Source of the DNA: Phyllobates terribilis
Taxonomy: Eukaryota
Length of the DNA: 64,000 bases
Direction: 5' to 3'
NCBI RefSeq assembly: GCF_046119375.1
Contig: NW_027362769.1
Coordinates: 414,718,001-414,782,000 of the forward strand
Positions within the stretch are counted from its first letter, which is position 1; the number at the start of each line of letters is the position of its first letter. Below, one piece after another: positions 3,001 to 35,600 of the stretch. The position numbers are program-made.

Positions 3001-6000
3001 CAGGACTCCCAGCCGACTGCTGGAGAATAGCACATGGCACCTGCCACATGGAGGGCACACGGCCGGGTACAGACGCACTCTCATCATCAGGTGTGTACCG
3101 CCATCTAGTACACATACGTAACACAGCCCTGAGGTCACAGGTCGCGCGGATAAATCACGGATCCAATTCATCTTTATTGCCTCCATCACCACATCCAGGT
3201 TCCCACCACGAGTTCCTCATTTACGAGTCCAGTCACCTTCTCTCCATCAGTTTATATAAATTCGGTGGAAATCGTGCGCCCCGAAGGCGGCGTTACACTT
3301 GGGGCACTTCCTCTGTCTGGAGTCGTATCGGGTCTTTACACACTCAAAGCAGAAGACGTGGAAACACTTGGTGAGGACGGCATCCTTCTTACGGGTGTTA
3401 CAGCAGGGGCAGGTGAGACGGGCCTAGGGGGAAGCATGGACATAGTCACCACCAGGTTCTGTGCCCGCATGCAGCCTCAGGCCCTGCGCCTGACCCCTGC
3501 ACCCCGCCCCAGGTGCCAACCCTGCATGAAACCTCGGGCCCTGCACCTGACCCCTGCCCGGGTGCCACCCCTGCATGAAGCCTCTGGCCCTGCGCCTGAC
3601 CCCCGCACCCCGCCCCAGGTGCCAACCCTGCATGAAACCTCGGGCCCTGCACCTGACCCCTGCACCCCGGCCCGGGTGCCACCCCTGCATGAACCCTCGG
3701 GCCCAACGCCTGACCCCACATGAAACCTCGAGCCCTGCGCCTGACCCTAGCCCGGGTGCCACCCCTGCATGAAGCCTCTGGCCCTGTGCCTGACCCCTGC
3801 CCCCCACATGCAGCCTCAGGCCCTGCACCTGACCCTACAAGCATCCAAAGGGCATAACCCCTACAACGCCAGGCGTCACTCACCCGTTCCCCAGAAGCAG
3901 CCAAAGGACCCACACATAACACCTACCCTGGCAAGCACCCTCCTGCCCCACCCCATCACCCATACCCCCATATTTCCAGGGGCAGTTTAGGTGCGGCCTG
4001 TTCGCCCTTACTCTGTACTCTTTGATCTCCTCCTGCAGGATCTGATCAGCGTCCGCATAAACCTCCATCTTCTTTTGTTTCTCCAGTTTTCTACGCAGAC
4101 GTGAGACGTCCTCCTGCAGAAGACGGAGGGTTAATAGGGGGAAGATCGGCGAGAGGGGGACTATGGAAAGGACATACATAGTAACATAGTCTTCCTTCAA
4201 TCTTAAAAACTAAGTCCATCTAGTTCACCCCATAGCCGAACATGTTGATCCAGAGGAAGGCAAAAAAAAGCCATGTGGCAAACACTAAGCTCCACATTGG
4301 GGAAAAAATTCCTTCCCGACTCCATACGACAATCAGACTAGTTCCGTGGATCAACGCCCTATTGAGGAATCTAGTATATATAACCTGTAATATTATACTT
4401 TTCAGGAAAGGCGTCCAGGCCCTTCTTACATGTTAGTAGTGAATCCCTCATTACACCATCATGCGGTAGAGAGCTCCATAGTCTCACTGCTCTTACAGTA
4501 AAGAATCCGCGTCTGTGATTATGATTAAACCTTCTTTCCTCCAGACGTAGAAGATGCCCCCTTGTCCCCGTCTCAGGCCTCAGAGTAAAAAGATCAGTAG
4601 AAAGGTCTTTGTACTGTCCCCTCATATACTTGTACATAGTAATAAGATCCCCCCTAAACTAAATAACCCCAAGTGTAATAACCTGTCTTGGTATTGCAGA
4701 CCCCCCAGTCCTCTAATAACCTGTCTTGGTATTGCAGACCCCCCAGTCCTCTAATAACCTGTCTTGGTATTGCAGACCCCCCAGTCCTCTAATAACCTGT
4801 CTTGGTATTGCAGACCCCCCAGTCCTCTAATAACCTGTCTTGGTATTGCAGACCCCCCCCCGTCCTCTAATAACCTGTCTTGGTATTGCAGACCCCCCCC
4901 CGTCCTCTAATAACCTGTCTTGGTATTGCAGACCCCCCCCCGTCCTCTAATAACCTGTCTTGGTATTGCAGACCCCCCCGTCCTCTAATAACCTGTCTTG
5001 GTATTGCAGACCCCCCCCGTCCTCTAATAACCTGTCTTGGTATTGCAGACCCCCCCCGTCCTCTAATAACCTGTCTTGGTATTGCAGACCCCCCAGTCCT
5101 CTAATAACCTGTCTTGGTATTGCAGACCCCCCAGTCCTCTAATAACCTGTCTTGGTATTGCAGACCCCCCAGTCCTCTAATAACCTGTCTTGGTATTGCA
5201 GACCCCCCAGTCCTCTAATAACCTGTCTTGGTATTGCAGACCCCCCAGTCCTCTAATAACCTGTCTTGGTATTGCAGACCCCCCAGTCCTCTAATAACCT
5301 GTCTTGGTATTGCAGACCCCCCCAGTCCTCTAATAACCTGTCTTGGTATTGCAGACCCCCCCAGTCCTCTAATAACCTGTCTTGGTATTGCAGACCCCCC
5401 CAGTCCTCTAATAACCTGTCTTGGTATTGCAGACCCCCCAGTCCTCTAATAACCTTGGTCGCTCTTCTCTGCACCCGCTCTAGTTCAGCTATGTCTTTCT
5501 TATACACCGGAGACCAGAACTGTACACAGTATTCTAAGTGTGGTCGCACTAGTGACTTGTATAGAGGTAAAATTATCTTCTCCTCATCAGCATCTATGCC
5601 TCTTTTAATGCATCCCATTATTTTATTTGCCTTTGCAGCAGCCGCCTGACACTGGCCACTAAACATGAGCTTGTCGTCCACCAATACACCCAGGTCTTTT
5701 TCAGTTACAGTTTTGCCCAGTGTTTTACAATTAAGCATATAATTATACATTTTATTTCCTCAGCCCAAGTGCATTACCTTACATGTATCCCCATTAAAGC
5801 TCATTTGCCATTTATCAGCCCAAGCTTCTAGTTTACATAGATCCTCCTGTAATATAAAATTGTCCTCCTCTGTATTGATTACCCTACAGAGTTTAGTGTC
5901 ATCTGCAAATACTGAAATATTACTCTGTATGCCCCCTACAAGGTCATTAATAAATATGTTAAAAAGAAGGGGGCCCAATACTGACCCCTGTGGTACCCCA

Positions 6001-32661: not shown

Positions 32662-35600
32662 CGTCCCGGGGGGGGGCCACACACACACACGCAGCGCCCC
32701 GGGGGGGGGGCCACACACACACACGCAGCCCCCCCCAGGGGGCGGGGTCACACACACGCAGCCCCCCCAGGGGGCGGGTCACACACACGCAGCCCCCCCA
32801 GGGGGCGGGGTCACACACACGCAGCCCCCCCAGGGGGCGGGGCCACACACACACGCAGCCCCCCCCAGGGGGCGGGGCCACACACACGCAGCCCCCCCCA
32901 GGGGGCGGGGTCACACACACACACACAGCGCCCTGGGGGGGGGCCACACACACAGCGCCCCGGGGGGGGGGCCCACACACACAGCGCCCTGGGGGGGGCC
33001 ACACACACACAGCGCCCTGGGGGGGGGCCACACACACACACAGCGCCCTGGGGGGGGGCCACACACACACAGCGCCCTGGGGGGGGCCACACACACACAG
33101 CGCCCTGGGGGGGGGCCACACACACACACACACAGCGCCCCGGGGGGGGGGCCACACACACACAGCGCCCCGGGGGGGGGCACACACACACAGCGCCCCG
33201 GGGGGGGGGGGCACACACACACACACAGCGCCCCGGGGGGTGCCACACACACAGCGCCCCGGGGGGGGGGCCCCACACACACAGCGCCCCGGGGGGGGGG
33301 CCCCACACACACAGCGCCCCGGGGGGGGGGCCCCACACACACAGCGCCCCGGGGGGGGGGCCACACGCCACACACACAGCGCCCCGGGGGGGGGGGGCCA
33401 CACACACAGCGCCCCGGGGGGGGGGGCCACACACACAGCGCCCCGGGGGGGGGGGCCACACACACAGCGACCCGGGGGGGGGGGGGCACACACACAGCGA
33501 CCCGGGGGGGGGGGGGCACACACACAGCGCCCCGGGGGGGGGGGGGGCACACACACAGCGCCCGGGGGGGGGGGGGGGGGGGCACACACACAGCGCCCCG
33601 GGGGGGGGGGGGGGGGGGGCACACACACAGCGCCCCGGGGGGGGGGGGGGGCACACACACAGCGACCCGGGGGGGGGGGGGGGGGGGCACACACACAGCG
33701 ACCCGGGGGCACACACACAGCGACCCGGGGGCACACACACAGCGACCCGGGGGCACACACACAGCGACCCGGGGGCACACACACAGCGACCCGGGGGCAC
33801 ACACACAGCGACCCGGGGGGGGGGGGGCACACACACAGCGACCCGGGGGGGGGGGGGGGGGCACACACACAGCGACCCCGGGGGGGGGGGGGGGCACACA
33901 CAGCGACCCGGGGGGGGGGGGGGGGGCACACACAGCGACCCGGGGGGGGGGGGGCACACACACAGCGACCCGGGGGGGGGGGGGGCACACACACAGCGAC
34001 CCGGGGGGGGGGGGGGGGGGCACACACACAGCGACCCGGGGGGGGGGGGGCACACACACAGCGACCCGGGGGGGGGGGGGCACACACACAGCGACCCGGG
34101 GGGGGGGGGGCACACACACAGCGACCCGGGGGGGGGGGGGGGGGGCACACACACAGCGCCCCGGGGGGGGGGGGGGCACACACACAGCGCCCCGGGGGGG
34201 GGGGGGGGGCACACACACAGCGCCCCGGGGGGGGGGGGGGGCACACACACACACACACACACACACACAGCGCCCCCAGGGGGCGGGGTCACACACACAC
34301 AGCCCCCCCAGGGGGCGGGGTCACACACACACAGCCCCCCCAGGGGGCGGGGTCACACACACACAGCACAGCCCCCCCAGGGGGCGGGGTCACACACACA
34401 CAGCGCAGCCCCCCCAGGGGGCGGGGTCACACACACACAGCGCAGCCCCCCCAGGGGGCGGGGTCACACACACACGCGCAGCCCCCCCAGGGGGCGGGTC
34501 ACACACACACAGCGCAGCCCCCCCAGGGGGCGGGGTCACACACACACAGCGCAGCCCCCCCAGGGGGCGGGGTCACACACACACAGCGCAGCCCCCCAGG
34601 GGCGGGGGTCACACACACACAGCGCAGCCCCCCCAGGGGGCGGGGTCACACACACACAGCGCAGCCCCCCAGGGGGCGGGGTCACACACACACAGCGCAG
34701 CCCCCCCAGGGGGCGGGGTCACACACACACGCAGCCCCCCCAGGGGGCGGGGTCACACACACACACAGCGCCCCCAGGGGGCGGGGTCACACACACACAG
34801 CGCCCCCAGGGGGCGGGGTCACACACACACAGCGCCCCCCAGGGGGCGGGGTCACACACACACAGCCCCCCCCAGGGGCGGGGTCACACACACACAGCCC
34901 CCCCAGGGGGCGGGGTCACAACACACAGCCCCCCGGGCGGGTCACACACACACAGCGCAGCCCCCCCAGGGGGCGGGGTCACACACACACGCAGCCCCCA
35001 GGGGGCGGGATCACACACACACGCAGCCCCCCCAGGGGGCGGGGTCACACACACACACGCAGCCCCCCCAGGGGGCGGGGTCACACACACGCGCAGCCCC
35101 CCCAGGGGGCGGGATCACAAACACACGCAGCCCCCCCAGGGGGCGGGATCACACACACACACGCAGCCCCCCCAGGGGGCGGGATCACACACACACGCAG
35201 CCCCCCCAGGGGGCGGGATCACACACACACACGCAGCCCCCNNNNNNNNNNNNNNNNNNNNNNNNNNNNNNNNNNNNNNNNNNNNNNNNNNNNNNNNNNN
35301 NNNNNNNNNNNNNNNNNNNNNNNNNNNNNNNNNNNNNNNNNNNNNNNNNNNNNNNNNNNNNNNNNNNNNNNNNNNATCACACACACAGCGCCCGGGTGGG
35401 CGGGGTTATAGCGGCTCGGCAGTCGGAGCACTGCTCGTCTTGCAGCACACTGCCGGCGGCCGCCCGGAGCAGGGCTCAGTCTCCTTGTGACCGGGGCCGG
35501 TATTCGGTGGGGCCGTCCCCCTTCCGTCCTGACATCATTACTATCATCACGCAGCGGGCGGCAGTTCGGCTCCCGGCTCTCCTCACAGCCGGATACCGTA

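What the first reader, a model, noticed from the sequence alone, without database searches (positions are those of the whole stretch)
3424..35600. Bimodal rnf40 introns: tiny, or inflated by a private minisatellite
Nine introns are 68-98 nt. Nearly all others (0.5-8.5 kb) are mostly one tandem array, each with an unrelated unit (about 57, 38, 33, 18, 108, 28, 55, 45 bp and CA/G-run), often within tens of nt of the splice sites. The same holds for cfap119. About 45 of 64 kb is tandem repeat, yet the 973-aa frame and all splice sites are intact. Inference: a compact GC-rich ancestral gene expanded by recurrent in-situ duplication rather than TE insertion, which would be a distinct mode of intron growth (subtelomeric or microchromosome-like, high recombination).
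[Added by the scan's program, not by the reader: the finding's places include an assembly gap (unread letters, written N; its length is only estimated) at 25958 to 26101, 26203 to 26429, 30337 to 30505, 35242 to 35375. Whether the letters on both sides are continuous or in frame is not known: test that first.]
Basis: partly seen in the sequence, partly recalled or inferred. Interest (0 to 1): 0.65.

Follow-up and report, generated by a model that had tools for sequence, protein, structure and literature searches.

The report
Frog introns inflated by private minisatellites
In a poison-frog gene pair about half the introns are tiny and the rest are swollen by tandem repeats that arose on the spot, which looks like the 'sequence stuttering' recently described on chicken dot chromosomes and so is a new example of a known process.

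Summary
TRF covers 45,998 of 64,000 bp, against 0-132 bp in five resampled controls. On the minus strand lies BRE1B/rnf40: 20 coding exons, each 100% identical to a Phyllobates terribilis protein model, and 19 of 19 junctions are GT-AG. Nine introns are 68-98 nt; ten are 386-8506 nt. Nine of those ten hold arrays, and five are at least 94% array. cfap119, head-to-head on the plus strand, shows the same pattern in its four complete introns. All four N gaps lie in rnf40 introns 1-2 at array edges, so the frame is safe but those two lengths are estimates.

Units are mutually unrelated in 134 of 136 pairs. Three arrays have a visible local seed: one spans the exon 18/intron 18 boundary, and two are pieces of LINE ORF2 copies.

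Best reading: tiny ancestral introns were expanded by in-situ minisatellite birth and growth, filtered for splicing. "Rather than TE insertion" is only partly right. The process is already in print for chicken (2026) and fits the tandem-repeat-rich subtelomeres described in frogs (2024), so this is a new member of a known kind. Genome-wide privacy of the units, chromosome position and other frogs could not be checked.

The parts
3247..35671 (-). BRE1B/rnf40 coding span: 20 coding exons and 19 introns
35619..35671 (-). rnf40 exon 1. Coding only in model P0014; it may be 5'UTR
26944..27112 (-). rnf40 exon 2. Holds the ATG that gives 970 aa
25722..25889 (-). rnf40 exon 3
25118..25259 (-). rnf40 exon 4
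24510..24731 (-). rnf40 exon 5
24316..24434 (-). rnf40 exon 6
20952..21098 (-). rnf40 exon 7
19502..19576 (-). rnf40 exon 8
19311..19430 (-). rnf40 exon 9
19043..19222 (-). rnf40 exon 10
18828..18963 (-). rnf40 exon 11
15678..15790 (-). rnf40 exon 12
15252..15583 (-). rnf40 exon 13. Includes a coding low-complexity E/R/K stretch flagged by TRF
15036..15153 (-). rnf40 exon 14
14816..14965 (-). rnf40 exon 15
14529..14741 (-). rnf40 exon 16
14335..14460 (-). rnf40 exon 17
7092..7232 (-). rnf40 exon 18. Its last 11 nt are the start of the first 33-bp repeat unit
4012..4113 (-). rnf40 exon 19
3247..3423 (-). rnf40 exon 20: RING finger plus the TGA stop
27261..35241 (.). Intron 1 array of G-run/(CA)n units of about 32 bp, about 244 copies at 76% match. 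Contains N gap 30337-30505
25918..26925 (.). Intron 2 block of A/G-rich arrays (periods 12, 15, 45, 28), interrupted by two N gaps
25335..25650 (.). Intron 3 array, period 48/66, about 4 copies
21150..24281 (.). Intron 6 array, 55-bp unit x 57 copies, 93% match
19603..20908 (.). Intron 7 arrays, 27/28-bp units with higher-order periods of 54-81
15909..18817 (.). Intron 11 array, 38-bp unit x about 80 copies, 70% match, higher-order periods of 108-186
7269..14316 (.). Intron 17 array, 18-bp unit x about 403 copies, 82% match. It makes up 99% of the intron
6331..7102 (.). Intron 18 array, 33-bp unit x 23 copies, seeded from the exon 18/intron 18 boundary. 22 copies are identical and carry GCGATG where the real donor has GTAATG
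4374..6330 (-). LINE fragment in intron 18: a 5'-truncated ORF2 remnant with a Pfam RVT_1 hit. It is read in several frames and interrupted by the 38-bp array
4676..5455 (.). 38-bp array x about 20 copies (98% match) inside the LINE fragment. The unit is a piece of the LINE ORF2, bounded by the 9-nt direct repeat AGGTTATTA
3467..3747 (.). Intron 19 array, 57/106-bp unit. A degenerate further copy lies at 3755-3805
25958..26101 (.). N gap in rnf40 intron 2, array on both sides
26203..26429 (.). N gap in rnf40 intron 2, array on both sides
30337..30505 (.). N gap inside the intron 1 array, same unit on both sides
35242..35375 (.). N gap in intron 1 at the upstream end of the array
35672..35863 (.). 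192-nt spacer between the divergent rnf40 and cfap119 start codons. Presumed bidirectional promoter (inference)
35864..35902 (+). cfap119 exon 1
35922..42430 (.). cfap119 intron 1 array, 36-bp unit x about 177 copies, 84% match. It makes up 97% of the intron
42592..42620 (+). cfap119 exon 2
42632..45271 (.). cfap119 intron 2 array, 28-bp unit x about 91 copies, 93% match. It makes up 98.5% of the intron
45301..45366 (+). cfap119 exon 3
45433..45599 (+). cfap119 exon 4
45686..45756 (+). cfap119 exon 5. Residues 125-207 of P0121 are not found in the window
1..2889 (.). Two neighbouring arrays downstream of the rnf40 stop: 72-bp unit (1-1074, cut by the window edge) and 65/66-bp unit (1114-2889). 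This is the only clearly related pair of units
47161..49067 (.). 38-bp array x about 50 copies, downstream of cfap119 exon 5
49318..50511 (.). 31-bp array with higher-order periods of 62/93
53282..53468 (+). LINE ORF2 remnant that runs directly into the 100-bp array
53469..56961 (.). 100-bp array, left part, about 35 copies at 95% match. The unit is a piece of LINE ORF2, bounded by TTCTGGGA
56962..63175 (-). Virus-like stretch: a Ty3/gypsy-type LTR retrotransposon inserted into the 100-bp array, flanked by the 5-bp duplication GGTAT. Described only
61288..62238 (-). gag-like ORF of the LTR element (Retrotrans_gag, Ty3_capsid)
58122..61099 (-). pol region of the LTR element (RVT_1, RNase H, integrase, chromodomain), read in two frames. 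One part, first base to last
63176..64000 (.). 100-bp array, right part, continuing to the window edge

Best explanation
The window is a GC-rich, tandem-repeat-saturated stretch of a dendrobatid frog genome, most likely Phyllobates terribilis. It carries the divergent gene pair rnf40 (BRE1B) and cfap119.

Both genes were compact, with introns of roughly 50-130 nt. In about half of the introns a short local segment was duplicated between short direct repeats. I infer replication slippage or microhomology-mediated template switching as the cause.

The resulting pair then grew into a minisatellite of 0.3-8 kb. I infer unequal exchange or gene conversion between misaligned copies, as proposed for recombination-rich frog subtelomeres and chicken dot chromosomes. 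Whatever sequence was present served as seed: plain intron, an exon/intron boundary, or resident LINE ORF2 fragments.

Selection on splicing shaped what survived. Arrays stop a few tens of nt short of the splice signals. In the five introns that are most nearly pure array (I2, I6, I7, I11, I17) and in I3, no decoy donor is as good as the real one. The 22 copies of the exon-18 donor carry GC instead of GT.

Shown here: the intron size classes, array content, unrelated units, three local seeds, short direct repeats at array ends, and intact frame and splice sites. Inferred: the ancestral sizes, the molecular mechanism, the role of recombination, and selection on splicing.
For: - Intron classes and array shares.
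- The non-array remainder of I2, I6, I7, I11 and I17 is 52-128 nt, against 68-98 nt for the tiny introns. For cfap119 I1 and I2 it is 180 and 40 nt.
- Units are unrelated. 134 of 136 unit pairs fall below z=4. blastn-short found no cross-array hits except the two halves of the split 100-bp array and one 15-nt G-run hit.
- The 33-bp array has 23 units in register with the exon. Unit 1 is the last 11 nt of exon 18 plus the real donor GTAATG. The other 22 units are identical and carry GCGATG.
- The 38-bp array sits inside a LINE ORF2. The LINE reading frame runs on both sides and through the unit, and the 9-mer AGGTTATTA recurs 21 times at spacings of 38-40 nt.
- The 100-bp array is colinear with the other LINE copy: 123 identical columns of 220, and flank BLASTP 22/42 identical, E=2e-13.
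- Array homogeneity ranges from 64% to 100% match, so the arrays differ in age or turnover.
- Tiny introns are 49-73% GC and exons average 58% GC.
- No decoy donor is as good as the real one in I2, I3, I6, I7, I11 or I17.
- Matching descriptions are in print: PMC12954441 (passages) and PMC10794172 (passages).
Against: - Only 3 of 17 arrays have an identifiable seed. For the other 14, local origin is argued only from unrelated units and small remainders.
- No other frog was compared, so the ancestral intron sizes are inferred.
- Unit privacy was tested only inside 64 kb.
- A BLAST screen in the style of the chicken study found 0 of 25 exons with intron hits above the shuffled control. The exon share of the 33-bp unit is only 11 nt.
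- Decoy donors that equal the real one by my crude 9-position score do exist: 56 in I1, 24 in I18, 11 in I19 and 2 in I4.
- Arrays show no edge-to-centre decay.
- Motif tests for the proposed drivers are weak. Only TGGG is enriched (19.6 against 8.7 per kb), while AGGG and ACAG are not. Canonical G4 motifs are absent from 12 of 18 array rows.
- TEs also contribute length: about 1.2 kb of LINE in I18.
- Four N gaps at array edges show that the assembler struggled here.
Confidence: 0.7

Rival explanations
1. Assembly inflation. The arrays are real, but their assembled lengths, and hence the kilobase intron sizes, are largely artefacts of assembling or scaffolding repetitive long reads.
For: Four N gaps sit exactly at array edges in introns 1 and 2. 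One array has 22 letter-identical copies, where copy number is hard to assemble. Frog subtelomeric tandem repeats are a known source of assembly gaps (PMC10794172, passages).
Against: Most arrays have diverged copies (64-95% match) with higher-order periods. Those give reads anchor points and cannot be made by duplicating one read. Exons are colinear and in frame across all arrays. Seven large rnf40 introns and two large cfap119 introns have arrays and no gap.
Confidence: 0.12
2. Dispersed families. The units belong to satellite or TE-borne minisatellite families spread over the genome, and the arrays arrived by transposition or segmental transfer rather than being born in each intron.
For: Two arrays are made of LINE sequence. 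TE-derived arrays are common in frog subtelomeres (PMC10794172). Genome-wide occurrence could not be tested.
Against: 17 arrays in 64 kb share no unit, apart from one neighbouring pair. The LINE-derived arrays sit inside their own LINE copy, in register with its ORF. The 33-bp array is in register with exon 18. The most inflated introns leave only 40-180 nt of non-array sequence, with no TE body or terminal repeats.
Confidence: 0.1
3. Selected function. The arrays are kept because they do something, for example regulating transcription timing, chromatin state or splicing of this gene pair.
For: Satellite-filled introns have regulated expression programmes in Drosophila Y genes (PMC6508621, listing and abstract start only). 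G4 motifs are dense in four arrays.
Against: Units are unrelated and have no shared motif. The arrays also fill space outside the two mapped gene models. There are no Rfam hits. Homogeneity ranges from 64% to 100%, as expected for neutral turnover.
Confidence: 0.05

Closest known systems
'Sequence stuttering' (intronic and exon stuttering) on chicken dot chromosomes. Genome Biol Evol 2026, PMC12954441 (abstract and passages read)
   Same: Each intron holds one or a few locally expanded motifs of tens to hundreds of bases. Clusters are separated by exons. TRF detects them. Some repeats start in the adjacent exon and copy its splice site. The context is GC-rich. Median intron coverage there reaches 93%.
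   Different: - The host is a frog, not a bird, and the paper states the phenomenon was not reported in other vertebrates.
- The arrays here are mostly orderly head-to-tail minisatellites, whereas the paper calls its repeats less organised.
- Interspersed repeats (LINE, Tc1-like, LTR element) are present here, but are described as depleted in dot-chromosome euchromatin.
- The exon share here is only 11 nt and fails a BLAST screen of the paper's type.
- The copied donor is GT>GC in all 22 copies.
- Length variation between individuals was not testable here.
Satellite-rich extended subtelomeres of frogs. Bredeson et al., Nat Commun 2024, PMC10794172 (passages read)
   Same: GC-rich tandem arrays. 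Some arrays derive from portions of TEs, including LINE/CR1. Different expansions arise in different frogs. The proposed driver is unequal crossing-over in recombination-rich DNA. Such arrays are a frequent cause of assembly gaps.
   Different: The main text of that paper never uses the word intron (0 occurrences), so it does not describe the intron-level, bimodal pattern. The chromosome position of this window is unknown. Of the three tetramers reported as enriched there, only TGGG is enriched here.
GC-rich VNTRs of human subtelomeres. Linthorst et al. 2020, PMC7608644 (passages read)
   Same: Units longer than 15 bp with more than 60% GC, many of them intronic, linked to high recombination and unequal exchange.
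   Different: In human genes such VNTRs are scattered features of long introns. Here they make up 94-99% of five rnf40 introns and two cfap119 introns and 72% of the whole 64 kb.
Satellite-containing gigantic introns of Drosophila Y-linked genes. PMC6508621 (search listing and abstract start only)
   Same: Introns whose bulk is tandem repeat, while the gene stays functional.
   Different: Those introns are megabase-scale simple satellites in non-recombining heterochromatin. Here the arrays are kilobase-scale, private minisatellites in a GC-rich gene-dense setting.
TE-derived minisatellites. Ahmed and Liang 2012, PMC3389668 (search listing and abstract start only)
   Same: An internal TE segment is tandemly amplified. 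Here this applies to the 38-bp and 100-bp arrays made from LINE ORF2.
   Different: Only 2 of 17 arrays here are TE-derived.

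Membership tests
Minisatellite / VNTR-type tandem array | Head-to-tail copies of a unit of about 10-100 bp | tested here: met
   TRF periods are 18-100 bp with 4 to 403 copies. 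Resampled controls gave 0-132 bp of array.
Sequence stuttering (chicken dot chromosomes) | Introns largely covered by locally expanded repeats, with clusters private to each intron and separated by exons | tested here: met
   Nine of 10 large rnf40 introns and 2 of 2 large cfap119 introns hold arrays. 134 of 136 unit pairs are unrelated.
Sequence stuttering (chicken dot chromosomes) | Exon stuttering: part of an exon with its splice site is copied into the adjacent intron | tested here: inconclusive
   One case was found by array register: 11 nt of exon 18 plus the donor, 23 units. A BLAST screen with a shuffled control found 0 of 25 exons.
Sequence stuttering (chicken dot chromosomes) | Intron length varies between individuals | not testable with these tools
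   No reads or second genome were available.
Sequence stuttering (chicken dot chromosomes) | Location on a small, GC-rich, high-recombination chromosome, or on its homologue | not testable with these tools
   GC is high (tiny introns 49-73%), but chromosome position and synteny are unknown.
Frog extended-subtelomere satellites | Lies in the terminal 20-30 Mb of a chromosome with a high recombination rate | not testable with these tools
   The window has no coordinates. The only hint is a 75-bp (AACCCT)n run at 52639-52713.
Frog extended-subtelomere satellites | Arrays derived from portions of TEs such as LINE/CR1 | tested here: met
   Two of 17 arrays are pieces of LINE ORF2.
Frog extended-subtelomere satellites | Enrichment of TGGG, AGGG and ACAG in the arrays | tested here: inconclusive
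   Per kb, arrays against non-array sequence: TGGG 19.6 against 8.7, AGGG 11.2 against 9.8, ACAG 10.7 against 10.3.
Dispersed satellite family | The same unit forms arrays at several separate loci | tested here: not met
   This was tested within 64 kb only. No unit is shared between separate arrays, apart from one adjacent pair and the array split by the LTR element. Genome-wide occurrence was not testable.
BRE1B / RNF40 E3 ligase gene | Orthology over the full length and a C-terminal RING finger | tested here: met
   Exon pieces cover residues 1-1000 of P0014 at 100% identity. The best hits are frog BRE1B. The last exon scores 35.5 bits against PF00097, above the cut-off of 21. Exons were searched one by one.
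CFAP119 | Orthology to named CFAP119 proteins | tested here: met
   Residues 1-124 of P0121 match at 100% in five exons. All 3 of 3 hits are named CFAP119 and carry PF14769. The rest of the protein is not in the window.
Ty3/gypsy LTR retrotransposon (the virus-like stretch) | Two LTRs, a target-site duplication, gag, and pol in the order RT-RNase H-integrase | tested here: met
   Direct repeats at both ends are 94-100% identical in blocks. There is a 5-bp flanking duplication. Pfam finds gag, RVT_1, RNase H, integrase and a chromodomain.
LINE (CR1-like) retrotransposon fragment | Reverse-transcriptase domain; assignment to a clade | tested here: inconclusive
   RVT_1 scores 33.6 bits, above the cut-off of 29.6, for 1 of 4 pieces sent. 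The label 'CR1-like' rests on a recalled C-terminal motif, not on a call.

The most novel reading that the evidence does not exclude
Intron 'stuttering' is not an avian dot-chromosome peculiarity. It would be an old, vertebrate-wide mutational regime of certain GC-rich, recombination-rich linkage groups. The frog rnf40/cfap119 neighbourhood may be homologous to a chicken dot chromosome. The chicken paper places ALDOA on chromosome 38. That ALDOA lies near RNF40 in human is my recollection and was not tested. In this regime introns are bistable. They stay at the minimal size of about 70-100 nt, where there is no room between the splice signals. Once a first duplication fits, they run away to kilobases.
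Probability: 0.3. Interest if true: 0.65.

Novelty: new member of a known kind. Interest (0 to 1): 0.42.

Why it matters
[quoted passage not shown] My two searches for a frog report found none: ('sequence stuttering' plus introns) returned only bird work, and one search returned nothing that describes frog introns.

A frog locus with the same anatomy, including an array born from an exon/intron boundary and arrays born from resident LINE copies, would mean the process is tied to a genomic environment rather than to birds. It could then be studied by comparing frog genomes.

It also has practical weight. Such loci cause assembly gaps. They produce kilobase-long spurious ORFs, for example 2398-3232 aa through arrays. 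They can also mislead gene prediction and repeat annotation in large amphibian genomes.

Tried and rejected
- Edge-to-centre decay of copy identity, as a sign of in-situ ageing. There is no consistent pattern in 15 array rows.
- Subtelomere-type tetramers. Only TGGG is enriched, and that is driven mainly by the 18-bp array.
- G-quadruplex motifs as a general driver. Density is 4.06 per kb in arrays against 0.42 per kb outside, but 177 of 180 motifs sit in four arrays and 12 of 18 array rows have none. I reject G4 as a common cause.
- A chicken-style exon-stuttering BLAST screen. 0 of 25 exons scored above the highest shuffled control of 32.2 bits.
- A link between the 55-bp and 100-bp units. 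The z score is 5.9, but it rests on one shared 13-mer, so I treat it as chance or microhomology.
- Rfam at gathering thresholds: 0 hits.
- Pfam, exon by exon. Only the RING exon passes a curated cut-off (1 of 10 exons sent); the rest is sub-threshold coiled-coil noise.
- The P. terribilis draft-genome paper holds none of the words tandem, intron, satellite or simple repeat.
- An anuran genome-size paper reports that intron change does not explain genome size, but gives nothing at locus level.
- Not attempted, because no tool reaches a frog genome: a genome-wide search of the units, the chromosome position, and orthologous introns.
- Supplements were closed. Bredeson Supplementary Tables 15-17 and the chicken paper's Fig. 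S5 gene list may bear on whether these units or RNF40 are already listed.

Full report
**What the window is**

I do not take the window for human. A single-exon query returned frog BRE1B (rnf40) proteins as the best full-length hits. The exon pieces of the window are letter-identical to P0014, named BRE1B isoform X2 of Phyllobates terribilis, over residues 1-1000. Five plus-strand exons are identical to residues 1-124 of P0121, named CFAP119 of the same species. Among 17 named frog proteins, P0014 gave the highest summed tblastn score, 2030 bits. Dendrobates tinctorius was next at 1818 bits. The window is therefore from P. terribilis or something very close to it.

**Gaps first**

The four N runs are at 25958-26101, 26203-26429, 30337-30505 and 35242-35375. 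All lie inside rnf40 introns 1 and 2.

- Every gap edge is tandem array. For 30337-30505 the same unit lies on both sides. For the two gaps in intron 2 the flanks are related A/G-rich units. At 35242-35375 the array ends into unique sequence.
- No reading frame crosses a gap.
- Exons 1, 2 and 3 are in the right order and strand across the gaps.
- What the gaps leave open is the true length of introns 1 and 2.

**Gene model**

- Junctions were tested one at a time by phase arithmetic against the exact-match blocks. Each of the 19 rnf40 junctions has exactly one GT-AG solution, and so does each of the 4 cfap119 junctions.
- The 20 exon lengths sum to 3000 nt, followed by TGA. That is consistent with an intact frame.
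- Split codons at the five phase-1 or phase-2 junctions were not translated. This leaves a very small uncertainty.
- The product is 1000 aa with the upstream exon of P0014, or 970 aa from the exon-2 ATG. The D. tinctorius protein starts at that ATG.
- Exon by exon, Pfam recognises only the RING finger of the last exon above a curated cut-off (1 of 10 exons sent).

**The observation**

TRF covers 45,998 of 64,000 bp. Five Markov resamples gave 0-132 bp.

rnf40 intron lengths, I1 to I19, are 8506, 1054, 462, 386, 75, 3217, 1375, 71, 88, 79, 3037, 94, 98, 70, 74, 68, 7102, 2978 and 588 nt. Nine are 68-98 nt and contain no TRF array.

Array share of the ten larger introns:

| Intron | Length (nt) | Array share |
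|---|---|---|
| I1 | 8506 | 94% |
| I2 | 1054 | 60%, plus 35% N |
| I3 | 462 | 68% |
| I4 | 386 | 0% |
| I6 | 3217 | 97% |
| I7 | 1375 | 94% |
| I11 | 3037 | 96% |
| I17 | 7102 | 99% |
| I18 | 2978 | 53% |
| I19 | 588 | 48% |

- Arrays come within 0-71 nt of the donor in 7 of 9 array-bearing introns, and within 26-148 nt of the acceptor in 8 of 9.
- cfap119 has introns of 6689 nt (97% array), 2680 nt (98.5% array), 66 nt and 86 nt. Its fifth intron is not closed inside the window.
- The two genes are head-to-head, with start codons 192 nt apart.

**Are the units unrelated?**

Among 17 host arrays, 134 of 136 unit pairs show no similarity beyond shuffles (z<4). There are two exceptions:

- The adjacent 72-bp and 65/66-bp arrays downstream of rnf40 (z=6.9).
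- A single 13-mer shared by the 55-bp and 100-bp units (z=5.9).

blastn-short found no cross-array hits apart from three kinds: the two halves of the 100-bp array, repeats inside the two LTRs, and one 15-nt G-run match.

**Local seeds**

Three arrays show where they came from.

1. The 33-bp array of intron 18 is in register with exon 18. Unit 1 is the last 11 nt of the exon, the real donor GTAATG and 16 further intron bases. It is followed by 22 letter-identical units that differ from it at 2 of 33 positions and read GCGATG at the donor place. A further partial unit abuts a LINE fragment.
2. The 38-bp array (about 20 copies, 98% match) lies inside that LINE fragment. The LINE ORF2 frame reads into the array, through the unit, and out again. 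The unit is bounded by the 9-nt direct repeat AGGTTATTA, which occurs 21 times at spacings of 38-40 nt.
3. The 100-bp array at 53469-56961 and 63176-64000 continues a second, diverged LINE ORF2 remnant. It is colinear with the first LINE copy: 123 identical columns of 220, and flank BLASTP 22/42 identical, E=2e-13. It is bounded by TTCTGGGA.

For the other 14 arrays no seed is visible.

**Ancestral size**

If the arrays are set aside, the five most inflated rnf40 introns leave 52, 85, 82, 128 and 54 nt (I2, I6, I7, I11, I17). That is the size class of the nine tiny introns. The others leave more:

- I3 leaves 146 nt, I19 leaves 307 nt and I1 leaves 391 nt.
- I18 leaves 1387 nt, of which about 1.2 kb is LINE.

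This fits 'a tiny intron plus one array'. It is still an inference, because no other frog could be compared.

**Splicing**

I used a crude 9-position donor score. Real donors score 6-9.

- No decoy donor is as good as the real one in I2, I3, I6, I7, I11 or I17.
- Decoys that equal the real donor exist in I1 (56), I18 (24, from the 38-bp LINE-derived unit), I19 (11) and I4 (2).

Together with the GT>GC pseudo-donors, this suggests, but does not prove, a filter against arrays that carry strong splice signals.

**Drivers**

- The context is GC-rich. Tiny introns are 49-73% GC and exons average 58%.
- Array homogeneity ranges from 64% to 100% match, so the arrays differ in age or turnover.
- Tests for specific drivers were weak: tetramers, G4 motifs and edge decay. 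They are listed under Tried and rejected.

**Transposable elements**

The statement 'rather than TE insertion' needs correcting.

- Intron 18 holds a 5'-truncated LINE ORF2 remnant at 4374-6330. It has a Pfam RVT_1 hit, is read in several frames, and is interrupted by the 38-bp array.
- A Tc1-like DDE fragment lies at 46093-46446, below the Pfam cut-off.
- The virus-like stretch flagged by the operators is a Ty3/gypsy-type LTR retrotransposon at 56962-63175 on the minus strand.
  - It is inserted into the 100-bp array and flanked by the 5-bp duplication GGTAT.
  - Its LTRs are about 1 kb, with blocks 94-100% identical.
  - It has a gag-like ORF, and a pol region with RT, RNase H, integrase and a chromodomain.
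  - gag and pol are in different frames. pol itself is read in two frames, which counts as one frame change.
  - I described it only.

**Comparison with what is known**

The closest match is 'sequence stuttering' on chicken dot chromosomes (PMC12954441; abstract and passages).

- Some repeats start in the neighbouring exon and copy its splice site.
- The setting is GC-rich and recombination-rich.
- The authors state it had not been reported in other vertebrates.

Frog extended subtelomeres are described as satellite-rich, GC-rich and highly recombining. Some of their arrays derive from pieces of LINE/CR1 and other TEs, and unequal crossing-over is the proposed driver (PMC10794172; passages). 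The main text of that paper never mentions introns. Human subtelomeres are 21-fold enriched in GC-rich VNTRs with units longer than 15 bp, many of them intronic (PMC7608644; passages).

Searches for a frog report found none. One search returned only two bird works. One search returned nothing that describes frog introns.

**Verdict**

It is wrong to exclude TEs, and the process is not a new mode. It is a new, clear amphibian member of a kind described in 2024-2026.

Still open, because no frog genome, reads or supplements were reachable:

- genome-wide privacy of the units
- chromosome position and recombination rate
- orthologous introns in other frogs
- length variation between individuals
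- whether RNF40 is in the chicken list of stuttering genes

Noticed in passing
56962-63175: A Ty3/gypsy-type LTR retrotransposon on the minus strand, with gag and with RT, RNase H, integrase and a chromodomain. It is inserted into the 100-bp array and has a 5-bp flanking duplication and near-identical LTRs, so it arrived after the array grew. This is the virus-like stretch and was described only.
   Followed up: partly
46093-46446: An open frame with a weak DDE_3 (Tc1/mariner-type transposase) match, E=1.2e-4. At 22.4 bits it is below the Pfam cut-off of 28.6.
   Followed up: no
52639-52713: A short telomere-like run, (AACCCT) x 12.8. It could hint at a subtelomeric setting or be carried by a repeat.
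   Followed up: no
7249-14445 (+), 26954-35680 (+), 35720-45418 (-): Open frames of 2398, 2908 and 3232 aa run through the arrays. They are by-products of periodic sequence and a trap for gene predictors.
   Followed up: no
35619-35671 and 26944-27112: The first 30 residues of model P0014 (exon 1 plus the start of exon 2) are absent from the Dendrobates tinctorius protein, which starts at the exon-2 Met. Exon 1 may be 5'UTR. Intron 1 would then be a UTR intron.
   Followed up: partly
35672-35863: rnf40 and cfap119 are divergent, with start codons 192 nt apart. This is probably a shared bidirectional promoter.
   Followed up: no
1-2889: The 72-bp and 65/66-bp arrays downstream of the rnf40 stop are the only clearly related pair of units (z=6.9). 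One array seems to have evolved from the other, or both from one unit.
   Followed up: partly
15317-15428 (rnf40 exon 13): 85 coding bases are flagged by TRF. They are a low-complexity E/R/K stretch of the protein, not an intronic array.
   Followed up: no
table (not in the window): rnf40 orthologues of several frogs sit on short contigs of 64-393 kb: Mixophyes, Discoglossus, Eleutherodactylus (older assembly), Rhinophrynus, Rhinoderma and Hyla sarda. This hints that the locus is hard to assemble in other frogs too.
   Followed up: no
50512-53281: An array-free stretch with 45-46% GC sits next to 70-78% GC arrays. Composition changes sharply within a few kb.
   Followed up: no
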